14,469 nucleotides of DNA from a virus (taxonomy: Duplodnaviria; Heunggongvirae; Uroviricota; Caudoviricetes). Of the stretch, positions 1-13,903 are shown piece by piece. The stretch lies in IMG/VR virus record IMGVR_UViG_2740892028_000014; one strand, written 5' to 3'. The notes beneath the pieces were generated by a model. It ran no database searches. It had not been told where the DNA came from and saw only the letters and a program-made list of their open reading frames with translations. The position numbers were made by a program, and so were the translations under genes. Position 1 is the first letter of the stretch, and each line of letters starts with the position of its first letter.

Positions 1-204
1 ATGAACACCGACACTATTCCTACAAAAGGCTATATCAGACGCTTCCGCCTGGCTGAATTGCTGGGCGTTAGTGTATCCACCATCGACCGTAAAGTAAGAA
101 ACGGTTCACTACCACGTCCGGTAAAGCTGGGAGAAAAAATAACTGCGTTTGATGCGGTTGAGATTCACAACTGGCTGGCAGAACGCCGCGGGAAGGTGGC
201 CTGA
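1..204 (+). CDS. alpA: AlpA-family winged-HTH regulator (excisionase-like transcriptional activator)
   Basis: ORF track 1..204, 67 aa. Sequence pattern LAELLGVSVSTIDRKVRNGSLPRPVKLG...EIHNWL matches the AlpA/Xis-type HTH as I remember it. Stop TGA overlaps the next ATG (TGATG). Family call is from memory, not a search. Confidence 0.7.
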   Translation: MNTDTIPTKGYIRRFRLAELLGVSVSTIDRKVRNGSLPRPVKLGEKITAFDAVEIHNWLAERRGKVA

Positions 205-635
205 TGGAAAAGAAAAACCGCCCATTACAGGCGGCTAATTCAGATATTCGCGTATCTGATGTTACGCCCCTTACAAAATCCCTTCAAGAACCAAAGCGCA
301 CACCGAAAAAGCATCGTGCCAGAGTCTATATGCTGCGTACTGGTATAGAGGGATGGACAGAAAATGACATTCTTCGCTACTGCCGTCTGTCTTCTGGTCG
401 TAACTATGCAACAGAGTTAGAACGCCAGCTTGGAATCACTCTGGAGCGTATCGACGAAAAGAATCCTGATGGTATCGGAACACACCTTCGCTACCGTTTC
501 TCCTGCCGCGGTGATGTTCTGAAAGTGATCACTCATATTAACCATCTTGCGAACATAAATGATCACAACGGACTTTCTCAGCAGGAAATTGCCGACATTC
601 TGAAACTCTACCCGGACGCGTTTAACGCCGCCTAA
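204..635 (+). CDS. hypothetical protein, 143 aa
   Basis: ORF track 204..635; start overlaps the alpA stop (translational coupling). Codon usage looks ordinary. No recognisable motif. Confidence 0.6.
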   Translation: MEKKNRPLQAANSDIRVSDVTPLTKSLQEPKRTPKKHRARVYMLRTGIEGWTENDILRYCRLSSGRNYATELERQLGITLERIDEKNPDGIGTHLRYRFSCRGDVLKVITHINHLANINDHNGLSQQEIADILKLYPDAFNAA

Positions 636-647
636 CGGAGACTGAAA

Positions 648-1481
648 ATGAACATCGAAAAAAGCAGATTAATTTCTGAGGCCGCCCCTCATCTGAACGC
701 CTCTCTGGGCACAATTAACGGTAATGAATTTGCCGCAATTGTCCCGGTTATTCCTGGTCATATCGGTGGGCGTGAAACCAATATTGTTAGCGCAAAAGCG
801 TTGCACAAAGCGTTGGGCGTGGGAAAAGACTTCTCTACATGGATCACTGATCGCATCTCTGAATATGACTTCACCATTGGGCACGATTACTCAGTCCATA
901 AAACAATTTCCCCAAATTTGGGGAAAAGCCCGAATGGCGCGGCTTACAGCAAGATTAAGCAGTCTGGCAGACCCGGCAAAGACTATCTGTTAAGTGTCGG
1001 AATGGCGAAAGAACTGGCAATGATCGAACGCAATGATCAGGGTCGCGCTATCCGTCGTTATTTCATCCAGTGCGAGGAAGAATTACAGCGTAGCGTGCCT
1101 GAAATCGCCGCCCGCTATCGTCGCCAGCTAAAAGCCCGTATCAGTGCCGCAAACAACTTTAAGCCAATGTGCGATGCGCTGAATATGGCCCGTGCCGAGA
1201 CGGGGAAAACGACGCAGCAACACCACTACACAAACGAGAGCAATATGATTTCTCGTATCGTTCTTGGTGGGCTAACTGCTAAGCAGTGGGCGCGGATAAA
1301 TGGCTATTCTGGCGAACCTCGCGACCATATGAACGCAGAACAGCTTGAGCACCTCTCATATCTCGAAAGCACCAATATCACGTTAATTGATATGGGCATG
1401 GAATATGAGCAGCGCAAAGGAGAACTCACCCGCCTGTCGCAACGCTGGCTCGCCAAGCGTCTGGAGGCGGTCCATGTTTAA
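648..1481 (+). CDS. phage antirepressor-like regulatory protein (Rha/Ant/Bro-N-type N-terminal domain), 277 aa
   Basis: ORF track 648..1481. GGAG about 9 nt upstream of the ATG. N-terminal region (IVSAKALHKALGVGKDFSTWITDRI...DYLLSVGMAKELAMIERNDQGRAIRRYFIQ) resembles phage antirepressor DNA-binding domains. Domain family recalled, not searched. Confidence 0.6.
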   Translation: MNIEKSRLISEAAPHLNASLGTINGNEFAAIVPVIPGHIGGRETNIVSAKALHKALGVGKDFSTWITDRISEYDFTIGHDYSVHKTISPNLGKSPNGAAYSKIKQSGRPGKDYLLSVGMAKELAMIERNDQGRAIRRYFIQCEEELQRSVPEIAARYRRQLKARISAANNFKPMCDALNMARAETGKTTQQHHYTNESNMISRIVLGGLTAKQWARINGYSGEPRDHMNAEQLEHLSYLESTNITLIDMGMEYEQRKGELTRLSQRWLAKRLEAVHV

Positions 1482-1656
1482 GCCGACAGGAACACCACAA
1501 CCTCAAAAACGCTACAAAGATGCCCACGGAGCACTCGTTACTGTCGAAAGCGTGTCTCACAACCGAGTGACGTTTTATCGCGACGGGTATCAATCGCCAT
1601 GCGTACAACCGCTGGCGCGCTTCATGAAGGAGTTCGCGGAGGTTAACAAATGCTAA
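1474..1656 (+). CDS. small hypothetical protein, 60 aa (internal ATG of track ORF 1387..1656)
   Basis: ATG at 1474 overlaps the stop of the preceding gene (ATGTTTAA); its own stop overlaps the next ATG at 1650. Fits the coupled-gene pattern of the operon. Confidence 0.45.
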   Translation: MFKPTGTPQPQKRYKDAHGALVTVESVSHNRVTFYRDGYQSPCVQPLARFMKEFAEVNKC

Positions 1657-2717
1657 CCGTCCAGAAGAAGATATTTTCACTGGCTGGTATGTCGCCAAAA
1701 TCCAGCAATATGACGGCAAAATCAGTTATTAATACAGCAGATACAAGCAAAGTTTATCATTTGCTGGTGGTCGGAACGGATGCCTTAACCATACCAGAAA
1801 TCTCGGGCGATGATATTAGCATTGAGAAGGTCAGCGGCTGCGCCAGAAAATTTCTGGTCGTAGATGATGTCTTCCGCTCGTGTAGTGACTCCACAAAAAC
1901 ATTCGTCCACGCGCGTGACGTTAACGAAATGAGCGCGATGTACTGTGCTTCTGGTTCTTCCAATAGTGAGTTTTCGGAGTCCATAAAAAAGAGCTTGCCG
2001 TTATGCGGCAACACGGTTTATGGTTATAAGGCACCTCATAAAACGGGTGCCGGGATTGGCGTCCTGAAAATTCTGAAGGCGACATATGACGCGCCGAGCG
2101 TCTTTTTTTATGTCGTAGGTCTGACTCACCCATTTTTTGGGCGTTGGTGTATAATCCAGCGCCTTTGTCAATCAATGGTGGCTCAGGCGGGGGCTTCTTC
2201 GGAAGCGCCGGTATCCTTCAGAGCCGGTTACGCCAACCCTGTCTGGGCTACCACCAGCGAAATTGGCGTTTCCGGTGGTAGCGTAACCTGCTATCTGAAG
2301 GAGGCTGCCACATGCTGGCTACTACCCCTACCCAAAAACCGCAATTTATCTGGATTATCGCCGCAGTTCGCCGCGATTGCCCGACAATTACCGCCAAAAT
2401 TCATCATATTGCTGCCGAGTCTGAACGCGATGCTCGCCGTTCTCTGGTGCGCGATCACGTCTGCTTTTTTGCTGGTCGTATCCGCATGGAGGTGGCACAT
2501 GATTAAAACCTACGATGTGCATATGGATCCCCTCGAACGCACAAGCCAGATCATCACACTGACAGAAGTGATTAACGACATTCTGGTGAGCAACTCTCCC
2601 TCACGAGACGAAAGACTGAAGGCGTTACTCGCGATATTGGATCTCGCCGTTCGTGACGTTCATTTCCTGCTGGAAGGTGGACAAATGCCATGCAAAACGG
2701 GGGCAACCAATGAATAA
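1650..2717 (+). CDS. hypothetical protein; open frame of 355 aa, probably composite (see 2312..2506 and 2499..2717)
   Basis: ORF track 1650..2717. The 5' two thirds have ordinary codon usage. Between about 2300 and 2500 this frame is rich in rare codons (CTA, TTA, ATA, AGG) while another frame looks coding. True 3' end is uncertain. Confidence 0.35.
2312..2506 (+). CDS. small hypothetical protein, 64 aa (alternative frame inside 1650..2717)
   Basis: ORF track 2312..2506. Strong Shine-Dalgarno AAGGAGG 7 nt upstream of the ATG. Good codon usage. Stop overlaps the ATG at 2499 (ATGATTAA). Confidence 0.45.
   Translation: MLATTPTQKPQFIWIIAAVRRDCPTITAKIHHIAAESERDARRSLVRDHVCFFAGRIRMEVAHD
2499..2717 (+). 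CDS. small hypothetical protein, 72 aa ([17 protein letters not shown]...)
   Basis: ATG at 2499 preceded by GGAGGTGG. Same frame as the 3' end of track ORF 1650..2717. Stop at 2715-2717 overlaps the next ATG. Confidence 0.45.
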   Translation: MIKTYDVHMDPLERTSQIITLTEVINDILVSNSPSRDERLKALLAILDLAVRDVHFLLEGGQMPCKTGATNE

Positions 2718-2904
2718 CTCAATTAATACCCCTCGCCTTACGTCCGCACTTCAATTAATCGAGCAAGCAGCGGCTGTCCTGGTTGCTGTCAGTCTTTCGG
2801 CTGAAGAAATGGACGCTGCTGATGTCGTGGATGCGATTAAAGCGTGCTCATCTTTGGTTAACGATGCCCGTGCAGAGCTGGTAATTCTTGGTGGTGAAAA
2901 ATGA
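2710..2904 (+). CDS. small hypothetical protein, 64 aa ([10 protein letters not shown]...)
   Basis: Internal ATG of track ORF 2653..2904, chosen because it overlaps the upstream stop (ATGAATAA). Stop overlaps the next start (ATGA). Confidence 0.5.
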   Translation: MNNSINTPRLTSALQLIEQAAAVLVAVSLSAEEMDAADVVDAIKACSSLVNDARAELVILGGEK

Positions 2905-3164
2905 ATATCAACTTAATTTATCGTCATCCGTGTGAGCTGGAAATTGAATCATTGCTGGGGCGCGAAGAGCCATATCCAGACACATTCACTCCCGCAGATT
3001 GCGCGACTGAACGGCTTACCAGAGCGCGCACAGGTCTGGTTCATGTGATGAATGAGATTATTCCCTCGGTGGGAGGGGAACAGGCGACAGTAATCAATAG
3101 CTGGCTACAAAAAGTTACCTCCCTGATAGATATCAGTTTAATCGATGTGGAGAGTGCGAAATGA
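2901..3164 (+). CDS. small hypothetical protein, 87 aa
   Basis: ORF track 2901..3164. ATGA overlaps at both ends; GGTGGTGA upstream of the start. Confidence 0.55.
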   Translation: MNINLIYRHPCELEIESLLGREEPYPDTFTPADCATERLTRARTGLVHVMNEIIPSVGGEQATVINSWLQKVTSLIDISLIDVESAK

Positions 3165-3382
3165 CCAACATCCAGCTCATTGAAGCGCAATGTCGCATCG
3201 AACAGGTTCAGACTGTTTTAGGGTTCTGGCTTGAAGGGGCCAGCCCCAGCAACAGAGACAAGTTAATGATTGGCGCGGTTATGTCACTGCTCAATGGCGT
3301 ACCAGAAGCTATTCAGGAAGCAGACGAATTGTTGGGCAAATATGAGTTACAGAATCATTCAGGCGAGGCGAAACATGAATAA
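3161..3382 (+). CDS. small hypothetical protein, 73 aa
   Basis: ORF track 3161..3382. ATGA overlap with the upstream gene; stop overlaps the ATG at 3375. Confidence 0.55.
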   Translation: MTNIQLIEAQCRIEQVQTVLGFWLEGASPSNRDKLMIGAVMSLLNGVPEAIQEADELLGKYELQNHSGEAKHE

Positions 3383-3977
3383 TTTCTTAACCTTCCATGC
3401 AGAAGCAACGCCTGACGGCGTAAACATCATGCACCGCAGCAACGATGGCATGACAGAACGCGTTGAGACCGTCTCATATATTGATGCCGTAAATCGTCTG
3501 GATGCCGGGGATTATGACGATAAACCAGATGAAGGCATGTTTATACATCTCGCTATTGCCAGTGGCGGCAACCAGGGATATTTCGATTACACATCACAGC
3601 ATCACGTGATTATGTGGCGCTGGCTGATAGCAACAGCATTCATCAATGAAATGAGAAAGGAAAACGGCACCGTCAGCATTATTGATGACAGTGGCAATCA
3701 TTCCGTGGTTTCTGTTTATTCCAATGGCATCGTCGCCATGCCGCTGTATCCAGTAGCAGAGCGCCTCGCTATGGCAAACAACATTGAGGGCGCAATGATC
3801 GAGAAATATGGTGTTGATGTCGGAACAAAGAATGCCATCATTTTTTACAGCAACATGTTCGATGTCGAACAGGGAACACTCACTTCGTTTGGGCGAGAAG
3901 TGCTTGCCGATCTTCACAACAGCTTTATTGCCGAACTAAACGAAAACGGCATCCCAGAAGCACCAGTGACGCACTAA
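3375..3977 (+). CDS. hypothetical protein, 200 aa (MNNFLTFHAEATPDG...)
   Basis: Same frame as track ORF 3270..3977, but the ATG at 3375 overlaps the upstream stop (ATGAATAA) and has AGGCGAGG upstream. The 3270 start would overlap the previous gene by about 110 nt. Confidence 0.6.
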   Translation: MNNFLTFHAEATPDGVNIMHRSNDGMTERVETVSYIDAVNRLDAGDYDDKPDEGMFIHLAIASGGNQGYFDYTSQHHVIMWRWLIATAFINEMRKENGTVSIIDDSGNHSVVSVYSNGIVAMPLYPVAERLAMANNIEGAMIEKYGVDVGTKNAIIFYSNMFDVEQGTLTSFGREVLADLHNSFIAELNENGIPEAPVTH

Positions 3978-3989
3978 ACGGGGGCCAGA

Positions 3990-6341
3990 ATGCGAAACAT
4001 TGATCTTATCCGTCAGGTTATCAGTGCGTCTGAAAACAACTGGCCTCATGTGCTGGGCTGCCTGAACATAAATGTCCCTGACTCTCCGCGCCGTCATGCT
4101 CCCTGCCCTGCATGTGGGGGCAAAGATCGATTCCGGTTCGACGACAACGGGCGCGGTAGCTTCATCTGTAATCAGTGCGGCGCTGGTGATGGGCTGGATT
4201 TAATTAAACGCGTAAATAACTGCGACACAACAGAGGCGGCGCTGCTTGCCGCTGATGTTCTGGGTATTGATTACCGGACAACGGAAACACCAGAAGCCAC
4301 CAGCCAGAAACGGGAACAACTGGAAACCGAGCGCCAGCGACGCGAACAGGAGCGCCTGAAAAGGGCAGAGAAGGACGAACAACAAAGACGGGATACGTTT
4401 TCCCGTCAGTTTGATGACATGCGCAGAAAGGCTGTAAACGGCAAATCTGATTATCTGGTTGCGAAAGGGGTAGGTGATTTTACATTCCCCGTGTTGCCCG
4501 ATGGATCTCTGTTGCTGGCGCTGGTGGATAAATCCGGCGCAGTCACAGCAGCACAGACTATTACCTCACATGGTGAAAAAAGACTCCTGACAGGTTCGGC
4601 AAAGCAGGGGGCATATCACGCCATAAACGCACAGAAACGACCTCACAGCATCATAATTGCTGAGGGGGTGGCTACCGCCCTGTCGTGCCATTTAATTCGC
4701 CCTGACGCAATGACAGTGGCAGCAATCGACGCTGGCAACCTGTTGCCAGTAGCGGAAGTCATGTGCAGAACATATCCACAGGCACAAATCATCATTGCCG
4801 CAGATAACGATCACCAGCAAGGAAACTCCGAAAGTGGAGGGATCAACACGGGGAAAGATGCCGCAGAGAGGGCCGCTATTTCCGTAGCTGGCTGGGTGTC
4901 TCTGCCACCGACTGACTATAAAGCCGACTGGAACGACTATCACCAACAACACGGGCTGGCGGCAGCCACAGCAGCATTTAAAGATTCGATGTACCAGCCA
5001 CGGGGGAAAGGGGCGCAGGTGAAAAATCACAAACAGCCAGTCGGGGCGCTGAATGAGATCAGTTCTGGCGAGGTGTTAAGCGATGATGAAATTGCTGTCC
5101 TCGAAGAAATCAACCGGACGTTTACGCATGTCACCATTGGCGGGAAACACAAGGTGGTGTCGCTAAAGCCTTCTCAAACCGGCGGTGTATCGCACGTTTT
5201 CGAGGATTTATCACAATTTCAGCATTATTTTCATCATAAACCGAGAGTCGCCAGAAAGCTGGCGGGATCGGCGTGGCTGTCATGGAGTGGGAAGAACTAC
5301 AAGCCAGGAGGCGTAGGATTTTATCCAGTACCAGACAAATGCCCTGACGATGTTTTTAATCTGTATGAGGGGCTGGCACTGGAACCAATTGAAGGAGATT
5401 GCACGGTATACCTTAATCACCTGTTGCAGGTTGTCTGTGCCGGTAATGAAGAGGCATACCAATATCTTATCCAGTGGATGGCGCACATTATCCAAAAGCC
5501 TGATGAAAAACCGTCCGTGGCAATCGTGATGAAATCTGTCCCGGGCACAGGGAAAGGCACAACGGTTAAACCGCTGCTGCAAATACTGGGGCAGTACGCC
5601 GCCCACATTAACGGGGCGGGACATATTTCAGGGCGCTTCAATTCAATACTTGCTAACAAGCTACTGGTATTTGCTGACGAAGTGACGATCCACAAGCCGT
5701 CTGAAGCTGACAGACTTAAAGCGATTATTAGCGAACCGACGTTTAACCTTGAGCGCAAGGGAATTGATGCTGAACCAATGCCGAATTTTGCCCGGTTGAT
5801 ATTTGCCAGTAACAGCACACAGGTATTACAGGCAGGGATAAGAGAGCGCCGCTATCTCGTGCTTGAGCCATCTCCTGAAAAAGCACAGAGCCGGGAGTAT
5901 TTTGATCGGCTGTACAGTTGGCTTAATGATGGCGGTGCCGCAAAGTTGCTTTGGCATCTTAAAGGGGTGGATCTCTCAGGTTTTGACCCTCAACGAGCGC
6001 CACAGACCGATGCCTTACGTGAAGAAATCTTGCTGGGGCTGTCTGGCGTTGAATTGTTTCTTTATGGCGAGCTAATCAATGAACCTCCGTTTAATGGCGA
6101 AGTCCGTTTGTTTGCAAAGGATATGGTTAGTCGATTTGTAGCGTGGTCGCTTGAGCGTGGGGAAAAGCTTAAAGAGCCAGCAGCCAGATCACTACTGGGT
6201 AAATCACTTGCACAAATGGGGCTGGTGAAGCATGGAAGACCAGACCGAGGGAATGGCGTGTTCTACGAACTACCAGAGGTCGGAGTTCTACAGGCTGCGT
6301 TTGCCCGTCTGATCGGTATGGGGGGTTATGATGTTTTTTAA
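3990..6341 (+). CDS. DNA primase-helicase, P4 alpha / D5-like: zinc ribbon + Toprim primase + P-loop NTPase
   Basis: ORF track 3990..6341, 783 aa. Zinc-ribbon motif CPACGGKDRFRF...FICNQCG near the N-terminus. Toprim-like acidic motifs IIIAEGVATA and IIIAADNDHQQ. Walker A VMKSVPGTGKGT and Walker B LLVFADEV in the C-terminal half. ACGGGGG upstream of the ATG. Confidence 0.9.
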   Translation: MRNIDLIRQVISASENNWPHVLGCLNINVPDSPRRHAPCPACGGKDRFRFDDNGRGSFICNQCGAGDGLDLIKRVNNCDTTEAALLAADVLGIDYRTTETPEATSQKREQLETERQRREQERLKRAEKDEQQRRDTFSRQFDDMRRKAVNGKSDYLVAKGVGDFTFPVLPDGSLLLALVDKSGAVTAAQTITSHGEKRLLTGSAKQGAYHAINAQKRPHSIIIAEGVATALSCHLIRPDAMTVAAIDAGNLLPVAEVMCRTYPQAQIIIAADNDHQQGNSESGGINTGKDAAERAAISVAGWVSLPPTDYKADWNDYHQQHGLAAATAAFKDSMYQPRGKGAQVKNHKQPVGALNEISSGEVLSDDEIAVLEEINRTFTHVTIGGKHKVVSLKPSQTGGVSHVFEDLSQFQHYFHHKPRVARKLAGSAWLSWSGKNYKPGGVGFYPVPDKCPDDVFNLYEGLALEPIEGDCTVYLNHLLQVVCAGNEEAYQYLIQWMAHIIQKPDEKPSVAIVMKSVPGTGKGTTVKPLLQILGQYAAHINGAGHISGRFNSILANKLLVFADEVTIHKPSEADRLKAIISEPTFNLERKGIDAEPMPNFARLIFASNSTQVLQAGIRERRYLVLEPSPEKAQSREYFDRLYSWLNDGGAAKLLWHLKGVDLSGFDPQRAPQTDALREEILLGLSGVELFLYGELINEPPFNGEVRLFAKDMVSRFVAWSLERGEKLKEPAARSLLGKSLAQMGLVKHGRPDRGNGVFYELPEVGVLQAAFARLIGMGGYDVF

Positions 6342-6370
6342 TATAGTCTTTTTACAAGAAGATCGTTTTT

Positions 6371-6476
6371 ACCTGTACCACCTATACCACTTTGCTAATT
6401 CAGTATTAAAAACAGTGCGTTATAGTGGTACAGGTCAATATCTTACCTATACCAGACCTGTACCACCTATACCATT
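6371..6476. repeat. iteron array I (putative replication origin): ACCTGTACCACCTATACCA units, both orientations
   Basis: Near-identical 19-20 bp units at 6371-6390 and 6457-6475, inverted copy TGGTACAGGTC at 6426-6436, AT-rich spacer between. Lies just downstream of the primase gene. Confidence 0.6.
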
Positions 6477-6517
6477 AACAAACGCATTTCTTCTGGCTGG
6501 CTGAGAGGAAACAACCA

Positions 6518-6748
6518 ATGATGAGCACACCATTTTACAAAGTGCGCCAGTTAGCTTCTTCCTCTGGCTGGCAGCTACGGTTTGAGGGGCGTTCAGACTG
6601 GCTACCCATTGCGGCATGGGCGAATGTTGAAATGTGTATTGACGGCGATACCGTTGAAATCATTATTCCCTGCGTGGCAAGTCGGGACGGCTGTATAGAG
6701 CCAACAGATATGGCAGCAGAAATCAGAGAGGTAAAACATGAACAATAA
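6518..6748 (+). CDS. hypothetical protein, 76 aa
   Basis: ORF track 6518..6748. GAGGAAA upstream of the ATG. 11-nt overlap with the next gene. Confidence 0.5.
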   Translation: MMSTPFYKVRQLASSSGWQLRFEGRSDWLPIAAWANVEMCIDGDTVEIIIPCVASRDGCIEPTDMAAEIREVKHEQ

Positions 6749-7475
6749 CTATTGCATACCGCAGGGAATGACCAGAACGGAGCGCGAAGAATTAAAAAGT
6801 TTCGCTACACAGTGCGGGAATGCTGGCGACATCCAAAGTCTGGAACGCACTTTAATTATGATTGCGCACTGGATGCGCCAGGGGCAAAGGGTTTCATTTA
6901 CTGAATATGCCAGCCAGTGGACAGAGGCACAGCGCGAACGGAGCGACGGTAATCACTCAACACCCGAAATGGCGAAGCAATGGCCTTTCAGTGGTAAAAG
7001 CTGTATCAGTCCCGGTGGTTCAGATTATTACCCTGCAGGTGTGGGAGATAAGCCATGTTGTGACGAGACTGAAATCCGCCACGCAGTGACAGTAATTACC
7101 GCTGAATACCCACAATTTAACCTTGACGGACTGGCGCTCCACAACCGGAATGCGGACTGGGAAAACCCGCTTGATAACCCGTCATTTATCGTATCGGCGA
7201 AAAGCTGCCTGAGATGGATCAGAGACAACGGGATGAGTAATGCCCAGATTGAGAGCTTCCCGCAGGATAACCCCACATCTGACATGTTGAAGCATGAAGT
7301 GGAGCGATATAACCAGATAAACCACCAGCACAGTGATCACCCGCACTATATCCCCAACGGAGCATTTATTGCGGCGATGGTGGCAAGCGGCTACAAGGTT
7401 AAGCCAGCGGGAAGAATGAACGCATTTTTCAATATTTCAAAAAAGGGATTATGTGCTGCTATGGGTAAAAATTAA
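6738..7475 (+). CDS. hypothetical protein, 245 aa, Cys/His-containing (CCDE, HQHSDHPHY)
   Basis: ORF track 6738..7475. AGAGAGG upstream of the ATG. No recognisable catalytic motif. Confidence 0.55.
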   Translation: MNNNYCIPQGMTRTEREELKSFATQCGNAGDIQSLERTLIMIAHWMRQGQRVSFTEYASQWTEAQRERSDGNHSTPEMAKQWPFSGKSCISPGGSDYYPAGVGDKPCCDETEIRHAVTVITAEYPQFNLDGLALHNRNADWENPLDNPSFIVSAKSCLRWIRDNGMSNAQIESFPQDNPTSDMLKHEVERYNQINHQHSDHPHYIPNGAFIAAMVASGYKVKPAGRMNAFFNISKKGLCAAMGKN

Positions 7476-7480
7476 ATAAA

Positions 7481-7585
7481 TGGTACAGGTCTGTACAGGT
7501 GGGGAGAGGTCATTTTTACCCACCTGTACCACCTGCAGGCCTCGCCACACAAGGGTTTGTGACATGGTGGTACAGGTGGTACAGC
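7481..7585. repeat. iteron array II: GGTACAGGT/ACCTGTACC units related to array I
   Basis: GGTACAGGT at 7482-7490, CTGTACAGGTGG at 7491-7502, inverted CACCTGTACCACCTG at 7521-7535, GGTGGTACAGGTGGTACAG at 7567-7584. Same core as 6371-6476. Confidence 0.6.
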
Positions 7586-7738
7586 AAAAACAGCGATTTT
7601 CTTTATAAGGTATGTTTTGCTCATCTGGCAGACGGAGGTATTCGCTGCGGTTTGGCACATAGCCCAGAACAGCAAAGAGTTTTACGAGACTTTTGTAAAA
7701 TCCAGTGTACAAGGGGCGTGACGTTTTTGAAGGTGAGC

Positions 7739-7757
7739 ACTACGAAATTTTCGTAGT
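7739..7757. promoter_or_regulatory. 19-bp palindrome ACTACGAAA-T-TTTCGTAGT, operator-like
   Basis: Perfect 9-bp inverted arms with a 1-nt spacer inside the untranslated region upstream of the 8079 operon. Binding protein unknown. Confidence 0.3.
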
Positions 7758-7950
7758 TCAAAAAATAGCCTCTGAGATGTTGTTATGCCTGTTCAGCAAA
7801 CCATCCGCATAGATGATCGCGAATCAAATTACCAATGGAGCAAGAAGCAAGGGCAGAACTGAAAAGCGCCTGCCGTGAAGAGTAATGCGACACCATAAAT
7901 ATAGTTTTTAGAGTCCATAAAAAACCTGTCAAAACCTGACACACAGAACG

Positions 7951-7984
7951 ATGCCACCAGCTACTGAGCGGTGGCATTTTCTTG
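7951..7984 (+). terminator. rho-independent terminator-like hairpin
   Basis: ATGCCACC (7951-7958) pairs with GGTGGCAT (7970-7977); loop of about 11 nt; followed by TTTTCTT. Loop is long for a canonical terminator. Confidence 0.45.
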
Positions 7985-8045
7985 TGCTATTCGTTTCACA
8001 TTTTGCAATGAACATGATGAATATTGCGATTTGTGAAACTATAAT
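7983..8045 (+). promoter_or_regulatory. promoter of the 8079 operon: consensus -10 TATAAT (8040-8045), poor -35, upstream TGT-N12-ACA dyad (7983-8000)
   Basis: Perfect TATAAT. The hexamer 17 bp upstream is ATGAAT. Dyad TGT GCTATTCGTTTC ACA lies about 50 bp upstream of the -10 centre. Interpretation as activator-dependent is inference. Confidence 0.4.
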
Positions 8046-8078
8046 GACTGTTGTTTTATACAGTTCTAAGGGGGCGTT

Positions 8079-8252
8079 ATGGCTATTTCAGTAAAGCCAG
8101 TATTGATAAGTGAGAAGCAAATGGAAGCGATAAAGAAAATTCAGGAGGAGCAGCGTAAAAAATCAGAGGTAGGAGTTGCGCCAACGATCCACGAAATTGC
8201 TCGGGGATTAATGGATAAGGCGCTGGCTTACACTTTAACTGGACGTGGGTAA
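8079..8252 (+). CDS. small protein, 57 aa, possible ribbon-helix-helix-like regulator
   Basis: Below the track length cut-off; read directly: ATG at 8079, AAGGGGG 5-11 nt upstream, stop TAA 8250-8252. Protein MAISVKPVLISEKQMEAIKKIQEEQRKKSEVGVAPTIHEIARGLMDKALAYTLTGRG has a strand-helix-helix layout. Fold call is inference. Confidence 0.5.
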   Translation: MAISVKPVLISEKQMEAIKKIQEEQRKKSEVGVAPTIHEIARGLMDKALAYTLTGRG

Positions 8253-8256
8253 ATCA

Positions 8257-9600
8257 ATGGCTACGTGGCAACAGGGTATTAATTCTGGTGGTTTTCTGGC
8301 TGGCATCGGTACGCAAAATGAGAATGCGCCAAAGGCAAGCGACATTAACGCAACGCTTGGTCTGATCCGCGAAAACAATGAACTGGCTCGATCAGGTGCA
8401 AATAACGTTGCTCTGACAGGTCTTCGAGGTCTGGCTGGAGTTGCTGATATTTATAAGCAGCAGCAACAGCAGGAGCGTAAAGCGGCATTCCAGAAAGGCT
8501 ATGCGGATGCTTATGCGTCCGGCGACAGAGAGAAGATGCGTAATCTGGTTACTGAATTTCCTGATGAGTTTGAGGAAGTCAGAAAGGGAATGGGGTATAT
8601 CGATGATGCCCAGAGGGATGATTTTGGCAATCTGGCGCTTAAAGCACAGGTGGCCTCATCGCTGGGCGCTGGCGCATTTGGTCGATTCATGATGGACAAT
8701 GAGAAGGAAATGCGCCGCCTTGGCGTTCCGCCAGAAGTCATCGCTGACATGCATTTTAACGACCCGCAGGGCTTCCAGCACTTTGCAGGTAATCTGGCAC
8801 TATTTTCTCTCGGTCATGAGAAGTACTTCGATATCAAAGATCGAATGGAAGGTCGTCGACTTGAGCAAGGGCGACTGGATGAAAGTATGCGTCAGGCTGA
8901 CATGGAGAACGCGAGAGGATGGGCAAATATCCAGAACGCTCAACTAGACAGGGCTCAGCGAGCACAAATTCACTCAGATGAGATGGGATTGAAGCTAATG
9001 GAGCTGGGGCAAAAAGGTAAGCCGTCAGCAGACTTAATTAAGGGATTAAATTCTGATATTACCAATTTTGGCAAAAATTATAACTCTGTCAGAGCGGCAG
9101 CAAACTCTCTGCAAGCCCTTAGCAAGGTAAATACTGGCGCTGCCCAACTTGGGATTATCTTCAACTACATGAAATCTCTTGACCCGCAGTCAGTCGTTCG
9201 TGAAGGCGAACAGGTTCAGGTAATGCGGTCTGATGGCATATGGGGACAAATCAAAGGATACATAGACCAGCTTAATGCTGGAAACGGCCTGTCGCAGGAG
9301 GCAAAGGATAACATTGTTAACGCCGCAAAAATCAACGCCAATGCTATGGGGCAGCAGTTTAACCAGCAGGTTGACGAATATCTCGATACATATGGAGAAA
9401 CCATTCCTCAGGGGCTAAGAAAAAGCCTTGAAAGAAGGAAAGCGAAGCTATTTGACGATGTTTCCGGGCAGCCTACATCACAGGCTGGCACTGGGCAGGC
9501 AAAAGCGGCAACCGGAGGAATATCAGAAGGCGCAACGGCAACCAACCCTAAAACTGGTCAGAAAATTATTTACAGGAACGGAAAATGGCAGCAAATGTAA
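8257..9600 (+). CDS. hypothetical Ala/Gln/Gly-rich protein, about 447 aa; no enzymatic motif seen
   Basis: ORF track 8245..9600 uses a GTG; the first ATG is at 8257 (MATWQQ...). The upstream small-gene stop overlaps this start region. Poly-Q run and predicted helical, low-complexity sequence. Last 16 nt overlap the next gene. Confidence 0.7.
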   Translation: MATWQQGINSGGFLAGIGTQNENAPKASDINATLGLIRENNELARSGANNVALTGLRGLAGVADIYKQQQQQERKAAFQKGYADAYASGDREKMRNLVTEFPDEFEEVRKGMGYIDDAQRDDFGNLALKAQVASSLGAGAFGRFMMDNEKEMRRLGVPPEVIADMHFNDPQGFQHFAGNLALFSLGHEKYFDIKDRMEGRRLEQGRLDESMRQADMENARGWANIQNAQLDRAQRAQIHSDEMGLKLMELGQKGKPSADLIKGLNSDITNFGKNYNSVRAAANSLQALSKVNTGAAQLGIIFNYMKSLDPQSVVREGEQVQVMRSDGIWGQIKGYIDQLNAGNGLSQEAKDNIVNAAKINANAMGQQFNQQVDEYLDTYGETIPQGLRKSLERRKAKLFDDVSGQPTSQAGTGQAKAATGGISEGATATNPKTGQKIIYRNGKWQQM

Positions 9601-11702
9601 TCTTACCGGAAGGTTTTGTGCTCGATGAACAACCTGATAACTCACAGTTTCCTGATAGTTCACAGCTTCCTGATGGTTTTGTGCTTGATGCCCAACCAGA
9701 ACAGCAGCAATCACCTTTGGTTTCACCATGGGAAAATTCCAGACAGGAAAATGTTGTTAATAATGCTAACGGTTTCGACCGTTTTATGTATGGCGTTCTC
9801 AGTGGATTGATGGATGTTGGTAAAGGTGTTGGCCTGTTTCAGGATATGACACCAGAAGAGCAAGCCGCAATTCAGTCTCTACAGCAGAAGTTAGCGGCAA
9901 AACCATCAACCGCACAAGATGTTGGTGAGTTTGTTGGACAAGCAGCGCCATTTGTTAGTGGTGGTGGGATTATTTCTCAGGTTCCGAAAGGTGCGGCAAG
10001 GCTGGCTGCCGCCGCAGGGCTTGGTGCTGGAGAAGGGGCTATTGTAGCCAATGGAACAAATAGCGATGTTGCTTCCGGCGCTGCTATTGGCGCTGTGGCT
10101 GGCCCTGTAGCCGAACTTGCTGGCCCTGCAATTAATAAAATAGCTGGGAAATTAACCAAGAAGAATGTTTCTTCGATTCCAGATATTGAGGGGATTACTC
10201 CTGCCGAAGAGAAAATTCGTAAGTTATCTGCACAAGGCAACCCAAATCTTGCCTCTTCGCTTGAAGGGCTAGATCTAAAACCTCAGAAAGAAATTGTTGA
10301 GGCTGCAAATAGGCTTCATGTTGATTCAGTTCTTCCTTCTCATTTTTCAGGAAATGAGCAATACCAAGCTGTAGAGCAAGCCCTAAAGTCACGGACAGGA
10401 TCAGCGTTAAAAGCTCAAGAAGATAAAGCAATAAGCGAATTAGCCTCTAGTGCTGGCAAGATAATCGATGATGTTGCTGGTGCGCCAGATGCGTTAGCTA
10501 TGAGCGAAAAATATATTTATCAGATAAATAGTAGAATGGAAGCACTAAAAAACCGTAGTGATCAGTTATATAAACGTGTTGATTCCGCTCTATCACCAAG
10601 AACAAAAGTCGAAGCAAATAACACAAGCACTATGCTGGAAAAAATCGCTGATGATTTAGGTGGGTGGGATAATCTTGACCCAATAGAAAAGCGAGTTTTT
10701 ACAGCAATAAACCCCGGCCCAGATAGCATCCTAACGTATGCAAATTTAAACAGGCAAAGGCGTTTAGTTGGTGATGCCCTAAATAAAAAGCAGGGGCCAT
10801 ACAAAGATGCTGATAAAGAAGCGCTATCAAGACTATATGGAGCTTTAGCTGAAGACCAAAAATCTGTCTTATCCAATACTGGATACTTGCGAGATTTCGA
10901 AGTCGCACAACGCCTTGTAGCTATGAGAAAAAACTTAGAAAGGCAAATGGTAAATCTTCGCGGGAAAACACTTAATGGGGATATAGCGTATAAAGTAACG
11001 AATTCTCTTCAATCTATGGCAAAAGGTGATGCGAGAGGGTTTCGTGAGATTATGCAAAATACTCCATCAAGAACATTGCGAAGGGAGCTAGTAGGAACAG
11101 CATTAAGAGATATGCTTTCCTCTGGGAAGCGCGGGGCCGACTTTAATCCATCTGGCTTTGCAGATTGGTGGCAAAACTTGCAACACAGTGGACAGCTAAA
11201 GACTTTGGCTGAACATTTGCCAAAAGAAACAATGAGCGGACTATATGATGTATACAAAGTTGCCAGAGCAATAAAAAATGCTAAAGCGCATGAAATATCT
11301 ACTGGTAAGCTGAATGAGTTTGTAAACAGATTTAATCGGGTAACAGCTCCATACGAACTAGCAGCAAAACACATTCAAAAAATAGGCACGATGATAGGCG
11401 CTCATTTTGGATCGCTTGGAGCCATTGCTGGGGCTGATATTGGAGCAAGATTGGCGAGTAAAGCTCGATTAGCTGGTGGAGCAGGGGCGGCTGATGCTGC
11501 GGATAAATTAATTGCCTCGCCAGCCTTCCAGAGCGCAGTAAAAAATCTACACGGAAAAGCGCCTGGGCACATTGTTGATTCACGTATCAGGCGCTCCCCT
11601 CAATGGAAGAGTTTTTTTAACTCTCTTCCTGAACAGGAAAAACGGACCATCGCCCGACTGGGCATCATTACTTGGCTATCTAATGATCCAGATAATGACT
11701 AG
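9585..11702 (+). CDS. hypothetical 705-aa protein with N-terminal tandem repeat and Gly/Ala-rich zipper-like segments
   Basis: ORF track 9585..11702. Tandem peptide repeat LPEGFVLDEQP / LPDGFVLDAQP, mirrored in the DNA at about 9600-9700. Gly/Ala stretches such as GAARLAAAAGLGAGEGAIV and GSLGAIAGADIGARLA. No Walker or nuclease motifs seen. Confidence 0.75.
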   Translation: MAANVILPEGFVLDEQPDNSQFPDSSQLPDGFVLDAQPEQQQSPLVSPWENSRQENVVNNANGFDRFMYGVLSGLMDVGKGVGLFQDMTPEEQAAIQSLQQKLAAKPSTAQDVGEFVGQAAPFVSGGGIISQVPKGAARLAAAAGLGAGEGAIVANGTNSDVASGAAIGAVAGPVAELAGPAINKIAGKLTKKNVSSIPDIEGITPAEEKIRKLSAQGNPNLASSLEGLDLKPQKEIVEAANRLHVDSVLPSHFSGNEQYQAVEQALKSRTGSALKAQEDKAISELASSAGKIIDDVAGAPDALAMSEKYIYQINSRMEALKNRSDQLYKRVDSALSPRTKVEANNTSTMLEKIADDLGGWDNLDPIEKRVFTAINPGPDSILTYANLNRQRRLVGDALNKKQGPYKDADKEALSRLYGALAEDQKSVLSNTGYLRDFEVAQRLVAMRKNLERQMVNLRGKTLNGDIAYKVTNSLQSMAKGDARGFREIMQNTPSRTLRRELVGTALRDMLSSGKRGADFNPSGFADWWQNLQHSGQLKTLAEHLPKETMSGLYDVYKVARAIKNAKAHEISTGKLNEFVNRFNRVTAPYELAAKHIQKIGTMIGAHFGSLGAIAGADIGARLASKARLAGGAGAADAADKLIASPAFQSAVKNLHGKAPGHIVDSRIRRSPQWKSFFNSLPEQEKRTIARLGIITWLSNDPDND

Positions 11703-13458: not shown

Positions 13459-13579
13459 GTTGGTTCAGAGCTGGGCTGTGTTGGTTCAAAATGAGTTGAT
13501 GTTGGTTCAATATTTCAGAAAAAACACAATAAAAACAACGATCTTTACAAATTGAACCAACTGAACCAACTGAACCAAC
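13459..13579. repeat. iteron array: three GTTGGTTCA copies phased 21 bp apart plus a perfect tandem triple of the inverse TGAACCAAC
   Basis: GTTGGTTCA at 13459-13467, 13480-13488, 13501-13509. TGAACCAAC x3 contiguous at 13553-13579. Lies in the divergent region between 12901..13356 (-) and 13616..13903 (+). Confidence 0.65.
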
Positions 13580-13615: not shown

Positions 13616-13903
13616 ATGATAAGGGACAGGAAAGCTGAAGAGCTGGAGTCAAAAGGGCTATACCGGAGAGCTGCCGCACGATGGGCAGAAGTCATGATGC
13701 TGGCAGATGGCGATAAAGAACGTGAACATGCAGCAAACAGACGCTCTGAATGTATCCGTAAGGCGGCACGCCCACCAGCAACTACAGACAGATTCGGAGA
13801 TTTAAGACAGGCAGTTAAGCGGACTCATTCGGCTCTTGGTATGGATGAGGAAGCGAGAGGGTACTTCAGGCGTTATCGCGATAAAGATTGCCAGAGACAG
13901 TAA
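13616..13903 (+). CDS. PerC-family transcriptional regulator-like protein, 95 aa
   Basis: ORF track 13616..13903. N-terminus AEELESKGLYRRAAARWAEVM matches the PerC-type signature as I recall it. TATAAT at 13597-13602 just upstream; GAGAGG before the ATG. Confidence 0.65.
   Translation: MIRDRKAEELESKGLYRRAAARWAEVMMLADGDKEREHAANRRSECIRKAARPPATTDRFGDLRQAVKRTHSALGMDEEARGYFRRYRDKDCQRQ

What the first reader, a model, noticed from the sequence alone, without database searches (positions are those of the whole stretch)
6371..7585. Two unknown genes bracketed by paired iteron arrays (ori plus second cis-site architecture)
Seen: the same GGTACAGGT/ACCTGTACC core occurs in two arrays, one just after the primase gene and one about 1 kb downstream. 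Between them lie exactly two overlapping genes (76 and 245 aa). Established: P4 replication needs two alpha-binding iteron sites, ori and crr, so a bipartite origin is a reasonable reading. Inference: the enclosed pair could be an origin-embedded accessory cassette (replication, packaging redirection or defence); the 245-aa protein has Cys/His clusters suggesting metal binding.
Basis: partly seen in the sequence, partly recalled or inferred. Interest (0 to 1): 0.7.

Follow-up and report, generated by a model that had tools for sequence, protein, structure and literature searches.

The report
Paired origin arrays in phage satellite
A phage-parasitic island of E. coli carries two mirror-image clusters of binding repeats for its own replication enzyme, a two-part replication origin like that of satellite phage P4, and the two unknown genes between them look like passengers in a gap that tolerates insertions.

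Summary
GGTACAGGT occurs 6 times exactly (0.04 expected), only in 6371-6474 (array A) and 7482-7586 (array B). Exactly two real genes lie between them.

The window is a variant of the published satellite EcCIMP1, which integrates at tRNA-Thr. A 2.7-kb cassette (about 5012-7675) has been swapped in. It holds the helicase/C-terminal half of the primase, array A, ORF76, ORF245 and array B.

- B is an inverted, in-register copy of A. A's long spacer is 29% GC and B's is 60% GC.
- The repeat type follows the C-terminal half of the primase across relatives, not the N-terminal primase domain.
- Paired arrays recur with three other initiator types and different repeats. The gap ranges from about 15 bp to 8.5 kb. 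EcCIMP1 itself has a pair, and P4 ori/crr has the same unit layout.

So the "ori plus second cis-site" reading is well supported by comparison, though not by experiment.

The "special embedded cassette" reading is weak. ORF245 lies outside the arrays in Xenorhabdus and also occurs in prophages. It fuses two widespread phage domains of unknown function. Only 2 Cys and 2 His are invariant. ORF76 travels only with this replicon type.

Verdict: a new variant of a known kind, of moderate interest.

The parts
3990..5011 (+). Primase gene, N-terminal part (zinc ribbon and Toprim primase domain, residues 1-340). This part lies outside the swapped cassette.
   Evidence: Pfam Zn_Ribbon_Prim and Toprim_3. 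32% identical to P4 alpha residues 5-314, E 6e-39. 87% nucleotide identity to the N-terminal part of the otherwise unrelated DUF927 primase of EcCIMP1 and L002.
5012..6341 (+). Primase gene, C-terminal half (DUF5906 SF3 helicase plus the C-terminal ~120 residues, inferred to bind the origin). This is the left part of the swapped cassette.
   Evidence: Pfam DUF5906. PDB primase-helicase hit at residues 475-654. No similarity to EcCIMP1 from base 5012 onward. Iteron type follows this half: L005 is 87-93% identical with the same iteron, while L017 is 15-19% identical with a different iteron although its N-terminus is 82/68% identical.
6371..6474 (.). Array A, the proposed origin proper. Units at 6371 and 6380 (-), 6427 (+), 6445, 6456 and 6465 (-). 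The AT-rich long spacer 6390-6424 (29% GC) is the likely melting site.
   Evidence: Same position and organisation as published PICI origins: 3' of the rep gene, with two iteron sets flanking an AT-rich region (PMC6092414). Iteron columns invariant 42/54 against spacer columns 20/51 across three genera, p=7e-5.
6518..6748 (+). ORF76, a small predicted all-beta protein of unknown function. It is specific to this replicon type and always lies between arrays A and B.
   Evidence: Only 12 homologue clusters, all in Enterobacterales. Found between the two arrays in the window, L005, L009, L007 and L016. dN/dS 0.07-0.28. AF2 pLDDT is only 57. No Pfam, PHROG, NCBIfam or PADLOC hit.
6738..7475 (+). 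ORF245, a two-domain accessory protein of unknown function. The N-domain spans about residues 5-100. The C-domain spans about 110-244 and possibly ends in a winged helix.
7482..7586 (.). Array B, an inverted in-register copy of A with a GC-rich (60%) long spacer. Proposed second, crr-like initiator-binding site. Units at 7482 and 7492 (+), 7522 (-), 7569 (+), 7578 (+, degenerate).
   Evidence: Conserved in Raoultella and Buttiauxella-type islands, with iteron columns 28/45 against spacers 20/60, p=0.005. Homology with the Raoultella island ends at 7607, just past B.
5012..7675 (+). Exchangeable replication-specificity cassette: helicase/origin-binding half of the primase, array A, ORF76, ORF245 and array B.
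   Evidence: The window is 94-96% identical to EcCIMP1/L002 over 194-3975, 87% over 3990-5011 and 93-94% over 7676-8227. There is no similarity in between.
13459..13579 (.). Orphan distal array of the other (EcCIMP1/DUF927) replicon type: GTTGGTTCA x3, about 43 bp AT-rich, TGAACCAAC x3. It lies just upstream of perC.
   Evidence: 6 exact copies against 0.10 expected. Aligns in register with both arrays of EcCIMP1. Cut down to 2 units in strain D72, which carries the same DUF5906 cassette.

Best explanation
Arrays A and B are the two halves of a bipartite replication origin for the island's own primase-helicase.

Inferred mechanism:
- The C-terminal part of the primase recognises the 9-bp iteron GGTA(C/T)AGGT.
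- Array A lies 30 bp after the primase gene and has iterons on both sides of an AT-rich 35-bp spacer. It is the site where hexamers assemble and DNA melts, as at a PICI-type ori.
- Array B is the same iteron scaffold inverted, about 1 kb away, with a GC-rich spacer. It is a second cis site, like P4's crr, that the same protein binds. It would act by looping to A, either to stimulate initiation or to limit copy number.

Shown by comparison: the distance between the two arrays is free, and the gap accepts genes. ORF76 and ORF245 sit in that gap. ORF76 is co-inherited with this replicon type, so it is the better candidate for a replication accessory. ORF245 is a promiscuous two-domain phage/satellite gene that simply tends to lie next to satellite origins.

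The initiator's specificity half, both arrays and the two genes move between islands as one 2.7-kb cassette.
For: Shown:
- The iteron is far over-represented and confined to the two arrays in the whole island.
- A and the reverse complement of B align in register. A's spacer is 29% GC and B's is 60% GC.
- Iteron columns are conserved above spacers in both arrays across Escherichia, Raoultella and Buttiauxella-type islands.
- Iteron type tracks the C-terminal half of the primase, not the N-terminal primase domain.
- The cassette boundaries are 5012 and 7675 against EcCIMP1. Homology with Raoultella ends at 7607, right after B.

Paired arrays recur:
- L019, a P4-like satellite with the same iteron, has A and B contiguous.
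- Xenorhabdus L007 and L016 have arrays around ORF73 only.
- L010 has a DUF927 primase and CCGACAA arrays on each side of the ORF245 homologue.
- L014 has a true P4-alpha-type primase with two adjacent AGTGTTCAT arrays.
- EcCIMP1 and L002 have GTTGGTTCA arrays 7.7-8.5 kb apart, inverted and in register.
- The P4 record annotates ori and crr with type-1 repeats in the same layout: a doublet, a 35-bp spacer, then an inverted unit. crr lies directly 3' of alpha.

Array A matches the published PICI ori organisation, which was shown functional for EcCICFT073 (PMC6092414).
Against: - There is no experimental evidence here that the primase binds either array, or that B is needed.
- The C-terminal half is not alignable with P4 alpha (14-18% identity), so an origin-binding domain is inferred and not demonstrated.
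- For EcCICFT073, a pri-ori fragment with what the authors describe as a single ori supported replication. A second site may therefore be dispensable in PICI-type replicons.
- Orphan arrays persist without their cognate primase (window 13459-13579; L016). An intact array alone is therefore not proof of current function.
- Array B is partly degenerate in Raoultella.
- L004 (RepA-type helicase) shows no second array.
Confidence: 0.6

Rival explanations
1. Array B, and distal arrays in general, act mainly as regulators. Primase bound at A and B loops out or occludes the promoters of ORF76-ORF245 and of the downstream module, or pairs origins (handcuffing) to cap copy number. On this view B acts as an operator or incompatibility site and is not needed for initiation.
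For: B lacks the AT-rich spacer expected of a melting site (60% GC). A sits directly upstream of ORF76, and B sits upstream of the conserved 7676-8227 leader of the ejection-protein module. In EcCIMP1 the distal array lies immediately upstream of perC. Established plasmid biology offers precedent in iteron handcuffing in P1, F and R6K (from my own knowledge).
Against: The promoter scan found no enrichment of sigma-70-like sites in 6200-8300: 1 found against 3.2 expected. In L019 and L014 the arrays are contiguous with no gene between them. In EcCIMP1 both copies keep AT-rich spacers. This rival is not exclusive of the best explanation.
Confidence: 0.2
2. Array B is a functionless by-product: a duplicated origin left by the recombination that inserted ORF76/ORF245 or swapped replication modules, and it is slowly decaying.
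For: Orphan arrays demonstrably persist after module swaps (window 13459-13579; L016 CCGACAA array). One such orphan is truncated in D72. B is partly degenerate in Raoultella. The sequence of B's long spacer has diverged completely from A's.
Against: Iteron positions in B are conserved above spacer positions across genera (p=0.005). A second array is kept in at least four initiator types and in P4, where the record annotates crr as cis-required. B marks the cassette boundary in two independent comparisons. L009 has more B units, not fewer.
Confidence: 0.15
3. The two arrays are the terminal inverted repeats of a mobile or invertible gene cassette that carries ORF76 and ORF245.
For: The outermost 24 nt of A and B are inverted repeats, 88% complementary (I1).
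Against: - The cassette holds no transposase or recombinase.
- The ORF orientation relative to the primase is the same in every locus seen.
- The same arrays are contiguous in L019 and flank only ORF73 in Xenorhabdus.
- ORF245 occurs with unrelated iterons.
- The unit that actually moves includes half of the primase gene.
Confidence: 0.03

Closest known systems
Bacteriophage P4 ori / crr with alpha primase-helicase
   Same: - Two separate clusters of one short iteron.
- Unit layout of a 9-10-bp-spaced doublet, a 35-38-bp spacer and then an inverted unit.
- One cluster lies directly 3' of the initiator gene.
- The partner clusters are inverted relative to each other (one search compared).
- The initiator has a homologous zinc-ribbon and Toprim primase domain (32% identity, E 6e-39).
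- C4/CI-type antisense RNA lies upstream in the island.
   Different: - The helicase/C-terminal half is not alignable with alpha (14-18% identity). It is DUF5906 only, without D5_N or Pox_D5.
- The iteron is GGTACAGGT, not TGTTCACC.
- In P4 the primase-proximal site is crr, made of two direct 120-bp repeats, and the ori is 4.7 kb away. Here the proximal array carries the AT-rich spacer and the partner is 1 kb away.
- The island has no sid, delta or psu. Its helper is presumably P22-like, not P2.
PICI replication origin (SaPI and EcCICFT073 type; Fillol-Salom et al. 2018, PMC6092414)
   Same: Array A lies immediately 3' of the initiator gene and has two iteron sets flanking an AT-rich region.
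   Different: That description has a single origin. Here, and in EcCIMP1 itself, there is a second inverted copy 1 to 8.5 kb away. This second copy is not mentioned in either paper.
EcCIMP1 (Pick et al. 2025, PMC11773190), a P22-like-phage-dependent PICI at tRNA-Thr
   Same: Same integration site in the closest genome. 94-96% identical left arm. Same antirepressor, 'ash' region and PerC, and related ejection-protein genes.
   Different: EcCIMP1 has a DUF927 primase-helicase with GTTGGTTCA arrays and lacks ORF76 and ORF245. The window carries a different C-terminal primase half, different arrays and the two extra genes. It keeps only an orphan GTTGGTTCA array.

Membership tests
PICI-type origin (array A) | Lies immediately 3' of the replication initiator gene | tested here: met
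   The primase stop codon ends at 6341 and the first iteron starts at 6371. The definition comes from PMC6092414.
PICI-type origin (array A) | [quoted passage not shown] | tested here: met
   Layout is - - [35-bp spacer, 29% GC] + ... - - -. Array B fails this test, with a 60% GC spacer.
PICI-type origin (array A) | Supports autonomous replication together with the cognate pri/rep | not testable with these tools
   Needs a plasmid-maintenance assay like the one.
P4 ori/crr bipartite system | Two separate clusters of the same iteron in one replicon | tested here: met
   Layout compared with the P4 annotation.
P4 ori/crr bipartite system | Initiator is an alpha-family protein (primase, D5-type helicase and C-terminal origin-binding domain) | tested here: inconclusive
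   The N-terminal primase domain is homologous. The C-terminal half shows 14-18% identity, has no D5_N or Pox_D5 hit, and scores far below the cut-off for TIGR01613 (20 against 108.7 bits).
P4 ori/crr bipartite system | Initiator binds both clusters | not testable with these tools
   Indirect support only: iteron type covaries with the C-terminal half of the primase, and the two are co-inherited.
P4 ori/crr bipartite system | The second site is required in cis for replication | not testable with these tools
   Needs mini-replicon deletions.
EcCIMP1-like PICI (island as a whole) | Integrated at tRNA-Thr next to proA, with int, AlpA-type HTH, antirepressor, primase, ejection ('DNA transfer') genes and PerC | tested here: met
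   The integrase and att site were seen in L001, outside the window.
EcCIMP1-like PICI (island as a whole) | Helper-phage-dependent excision and transduction | not testable with these tools
   Shown only for EcCIMP1 itself.
Known anti-phage defence system (ORF76/ORF245) | Match to a defence-system protein model | tested here: not met
   No PADLOC hit at E<=0.1. No Pfam or NCBIfam hit.
Metal-binding (Cys/His) protein (ORF245) | Conserved Cys/His cluster or a known zinc-binding domain | tested here: not met
   Only H44, C89, C157 and H186 are invariant, and they are dispersed in sequence. CC105-106 and the His-rich 193-201 stretch are not conserved. No domain hit. Whether the four invariant residues are close in 3D was not examined.
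Transposon or invertible cassette | Terminal inverted repeats plus a recombinase, with variable orientation or location | tested here: not met
   No recombinase between the arrays. Orientation and location are constant in all loci seen.

The most novel reading that the evidence does not exclude
Paired, mutually inverted copies of the origin may be a general and so far undescribed rule of Gram-negative PICI and P4-like satellites, including the experimentally validated EcCIMP1. On this reading both copies are needed in cis, as with P4 ori and crr, and the segment between them is a free cargo slot ranging from 15 bp to 8.5 kb. Replicon specificity would then evolve by swapping one cassette, made of the helicase/origin-binding half plus both arrays, at the primase/helicase domain boundary. 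The orphan arrays left behind could titrate the initiators of co-resident satellites or create incompatibility with them. ORF76 would be a new replicon-specific initiation or copy-control factor.
Probability: 0.3. Interest if true: 0.6.

Novelty: new variant of a known kind. Interest (0 to 1): 0.45.

Why it matters
Origins of Gram-negative phage-inducible islands are described as a single iteron/AT-rich unit after the rep gene. The only classic bipartite case is P4 (ori plus crr).

Paired inverted arrays turn up across several initiator types, and the specificity half of the initiator travels with both arrays. If that holds, it gives:
- a simple rule for annotating satellite origins;
- an explanation of how these islands change replicon specificity, and so avoid incompatibility;
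- a way to spot orphan arrays as footprints of past swaps.

It also defines a clean, testable mini-replicon (5012-7675), and it singles out ORF76 as a candidate new replication accessory. ORF245 represents two large phage domain families with no known function. The families are worth characterising, but nothing here ties them to the origin mechanism.

Tried and rejected
- ORF76 structure. pLDDT was 57, too poor for a fold search.
- Rfam found no RNA family in 6300-8300.
- The promoter/terminator scan of 6200-8300 showed no enrichment.
- The phage collection holds nothing similar to 6300-7800.
- An IMG/VR scan with the iteron doublet returned more than 120 loci. Almost all were single chance matches. 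Only 3 had real arrays (L051, L054, L108), and these added nothing new beyond another contiguous-array example.
- The literature search for P4 crr returned mostly CRISPR crRNA hits. The P4 facts used here come from the annotated record X51522 and from my own knowledge of Flensburg & Calendar 1987 and Ziegelin et al. 1993, which I did not re-read.
- The transposon/invertible-cassette idea was rejected (see the rival explanations).
- The Cnr analogy for ORF76 was rejected. As I recall, P4 cnr corresponds to ORF106, which the P4 record places upstream of alpha rather than after it.

Full report
**1. What the window is**

The window is part of an E. coli chromosomal island. In the closest complete genome (strain D72, L001) the island sits at tRNA-Thr next to proA. 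It starts with a tyrosine integrase.

The gene order in the window is as follows:
- an AlpA-type HTH gene and a 143-aa ORF;
- an AntA antirepressor and a DUF4222 gene;
- a region annotated 'ash' that in fact holds isrK and a C4-type antisense RNA (2031-2258);
- several small ORFs;
- a 783-aa primase-helicase (zinc ribbon, Toprim and DUF5906; 3990-6341);
- the two unknown genes;
- homologues of P22 ejection proteins gp16 and gp20 (8245-11702);
- perC (13616-13903).

This is the make-up of EcCIMP1. That satellite was shown experimentally to be excised and transduced only with the P22-like helper Kapi1 (PMC11773190). The EcCIMP1 paper never mentions an origin or iterons.

About 130 of 5,426 complete E. 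coli genomes carry 6300-7800 at 98-100% identity.

**2.

GGTACAGGT occurs 6 times exactly, against 0.04 expected, and only in 6371-6464 and 7482-7577. With one mismatch, 10 of 12 hits are in the arrays. The full island plus flanks has no further site.

The layouts are (minus and plus give the strand of each unit; brackets give spacer length in bp):
- Array A (6371-6474): - - [38] + [9] - - -
- Array B (7482-7586): + + [21] - [38] + +

A and the reverse complement of B align in register from end to end. The long spacer is 29% GC in A and 60% GC in B.

The two genes between them are the only annotated ones. They overlap by 11 nt. Both are under purifying selection: dN/dS is 0.07-0.28 for ORF76 and 0.06-0.17 for ORF245, although dS is partly saturated.

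**3. The arrays belong to the primase's C-terminal half**

EcCIMP1 itself (L021) and sister islands (L002, L003) have a different initiator, a DUF927 primase-helicase. They lack ORF76 and ORF245.

A BLAST comparison of the window against them gives these figures:

| Window region | Identity to EcCIMP1/L002 |
|---|---|
| 194-3975 | 94-96% |
| 3990-5011 (zinc-ribbon/Toprim primase domain) | 87% |
| 5012-7675 | none |
| 7676-8227 | 93-94% |

So one 2.7-kb cassette has been exchanged. It comprises the helicase/C-terminal half of the primase, array A, ORF76, ORF245 and array B. Its left breakpoint falls at the primase/helicase domain boundary.

Homology with a Raoultella island (L005) runs from 4653 to 7607 and stops just past array B.

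Across eight primases, iteron type follows the C-terminal half:

| Locus | Identity of C-terminal half to window | Iteron |
|---|---|---|
| L005 | 87-93% | same iteron |
| L009, L007, L016, L019 | 46-75% | same GGTACAG core |
| L017 | 15-19% (N-terminus 82/68%) | ATCCCTAC |
| L014 (true P4-alpha architecture) | not related | AGTGTTCAT (P4 has TGTTCACC) |

This is the covariation expected if the C-terminal part reads the iteron, as in P4 alpha (my own knowledge). Binding itself was not tested.

**4. Paired arrays are the rule, and the gap between them is free**

| Element | Initiator and iteron | Arrangement |
|---|---|---|
| L019, a P4-like satellite with epsilon and delta homologues | same iteron as the window | A (AT-rich spacer) and B (GC-rich spacer) contiguous |
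| Xenorhabdus L007, L016 | same GGTACAG core | the two arrays flank only the ORF76 homologue; the ORF245 homologue lies after B |
| Window, Raoultella L005, Buttiauxella-type L009/L011 | GGTACAGGT | arrays flank both genes |
| L010 | DUF927 primase, CCGACAA | one full array on each side of the ORF245 homologue |
| L014 | P4-alpha type, AGTGTTCAT | two adjacent arrays |
| EcCIMP1, L002, L003 | DUF927, GTTGGTTCA | 6+6 perfect copies: one array right after the primase, one just upstream of perC, 7.7-8.5 kb apart and inverted in register |

The P4 record annotates crr ('cis required region for replication') directly 3' of alpha, and ori 4.7 kb away. Both are built of type-1 repeats in the same layout: a doublet, a 35-bp spacer, then an inverted unit. 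Their orientations are mutually inverted.

In both window arrays, iteron columns are more conserved than spacer columns across three genera. For A the counts are 42/54 against 20/51 (p=7e-5). For B they are 28/45 against 20/60 (p=0.005).

Array A on its own fits the published PICI origin: 3' of rep, with two iteron sets around an AT-rich region. That organisation was shown functional for EcCICFT073 (PMC6092414).

**5. Most likely mechanism**

Steps a to c are inferred. Step d is shown by comparison.

a. The primase-helicase binds the 9-bp iterons through its C-terminal region.
b. At A, iterons in both orientations around the AT-rich spacer let helicase hexamers assemble and open the DNA.
c. 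B offers the same scaffold without a meltable spacer, and it pairs with A by protein-mediated looping. This would either help initiation (crr-like) or restrain it (handcuffing).
d. The inter-array gap tolerates insertions.

I put 0.6 on the bipartite-origin reading. I put 0.2 on B being mainly regulatory, which is not exclusive of the first. I put 0.15 on B being a decaying duplicate and 0.03 on a mobile or invertible cassette.

The main caveats are three. Orphan arrays show that an intact array need not be in use. Array B is partly degenerate in Raoultella. A single ori sufficed in the EcCICFT073 plasmid test.

**6. The two genes**

ORF76 has only 12 homologue clusters. In all five contexts examined it sits between arrays A and B of GGTACAG-type replicons. 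It is predicted to be all-beta, but with low confidence. That linkage makes it the better candidate for a replicon-specific accessory. Its function is unknown.

ORF245 has 29 full-length clusters, all in Enterobacterales. A profile search finds 831 relatives. Most are stand-alone proteins that match either residues 5-100 or residues 110-244. They fall in PHROG families of unknown function.

Full-length or partial ORF245 homologues occur in these settings:
- after DUF5906, DUF927 and P4-alpha-type primases, and after a RepA-type helicase;
- in a Mu-like prophage after gam, and next to a phage lysozyme gene.

The model is confident (pLDDT 88) but has no significant structural neighbour. There is no defence-system match. 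The Cys/His 'clusters' are not conserved.

ORF245 is therefore a promiscuous accessory gene that tends to lie beside satellite origins. It is not an origin component.

**7. Comparison and novelty**

The element works like P4 ori/crr, and array A looks like a PICI origin. It is not a member of the alpha family by its C-terminal half, and it differs from the published single-origin PICI picture.

The following are, as far as the papers I could read show, undescribed:
- the paired-inverted-array pattern, including in EcCIMP1;
- the cassette swap at the domain boundary;
- the orphan arrays.

All of them extend known principles. The verdict is a new variant of a known kind, with interest 0.45.

Noticed in passing
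window 13459-13579: This is a third iteron array of a different type: GTTGGTTCA x3 at 21-bp spacing, about 43 bp of AT-rich DNA, then TGAACCAAC x3 at 9-bp spacing. It lies just upstream of perC. It is the distal array of the EcCIMP1/DUF927 replicon and is orphaned here because the cognate primase half was swapped out. In strain D72, which has the same DUF5906 cassette, it is cut down to 2 units.
   Followed up: yes
window 3990-5011 versus 5012-6341: The primase gene is chimeric. Its zinc-ribbon/Toprim part is 87% identical at the DNA level to that of the DUF927 primase of EcCIMP1, while the rest is unrelated. N- and C-terminal halves also recombine independently among other relatives (L005, L017).
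   Followed up: yes
window 2031-2258: isrK (67.8 bits) and a C4-type antisense RNA (79.9 bits) lie inside the long ORF that RefSeq annotates as an 'ash family protein' (1650-2717). This is a P4/P1-like RNA immunity module. The EcCIMP1 paper does not mention it, and the ORF may be spurious.
   Followed up: no
window 7676-8227: A conserved non-coding leader is shared at 92-95% identity with about 330 further E. coli genomes that lack the cassette. It includes a terminator-like hairpin at 7960-7975 and a 57-aa ORF (8079-8252) just before the ejection-protein genes. It may be a regulatory leader or a small RNA for the late module.
   Followed up: partly
window 8245-11702: Homologues of P22 injection proteins lie in a satellite that has no capsid, tail or terminase genes: a gp16-like protein (Inj_translocase, 246 bits) and a gp20-like protein (phrog_6704). 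The window variant lacks the DUF2824 and 225-aa genes that precede them in EcCIMP1.
   Followed up: no
window 6488-6501, 6559-6572 and 7620-7634; also L002 8983-9000, L007 about 7505 and 7965, L010 about 5960: A TTCTGGC(N)GGC-like motif, often able to form a short hairpin with the following AGAGG, recurs 20-40 nt upstream of the first gene after an iteron array in several unrelated replicon types. It could be a shared promoter, operator or RNA element.
   Followed up: no
L016 5786-5950; L007 2826-2918: The X. innexi island has an orphan CCGACAA array (the L010 type) right after its ORF245 homologue, although its primase uses CTGTACC arrays. The X. ehlersii island has an extra CTGTACCA array 4.9 kb upstream of the primase-proximal ones, in a P4-ori-like position.
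   Followed up: partly
L012 3963-5747; L019 1-125: An ORF245 homologue lies directly after a Mu gam gene in a Salmonella diarizonae Mu-like prophage. The P4-like contig L019 begins with a P2-type major capsid gene fragment close to its epsilon and primase genes.
   Followed up: no
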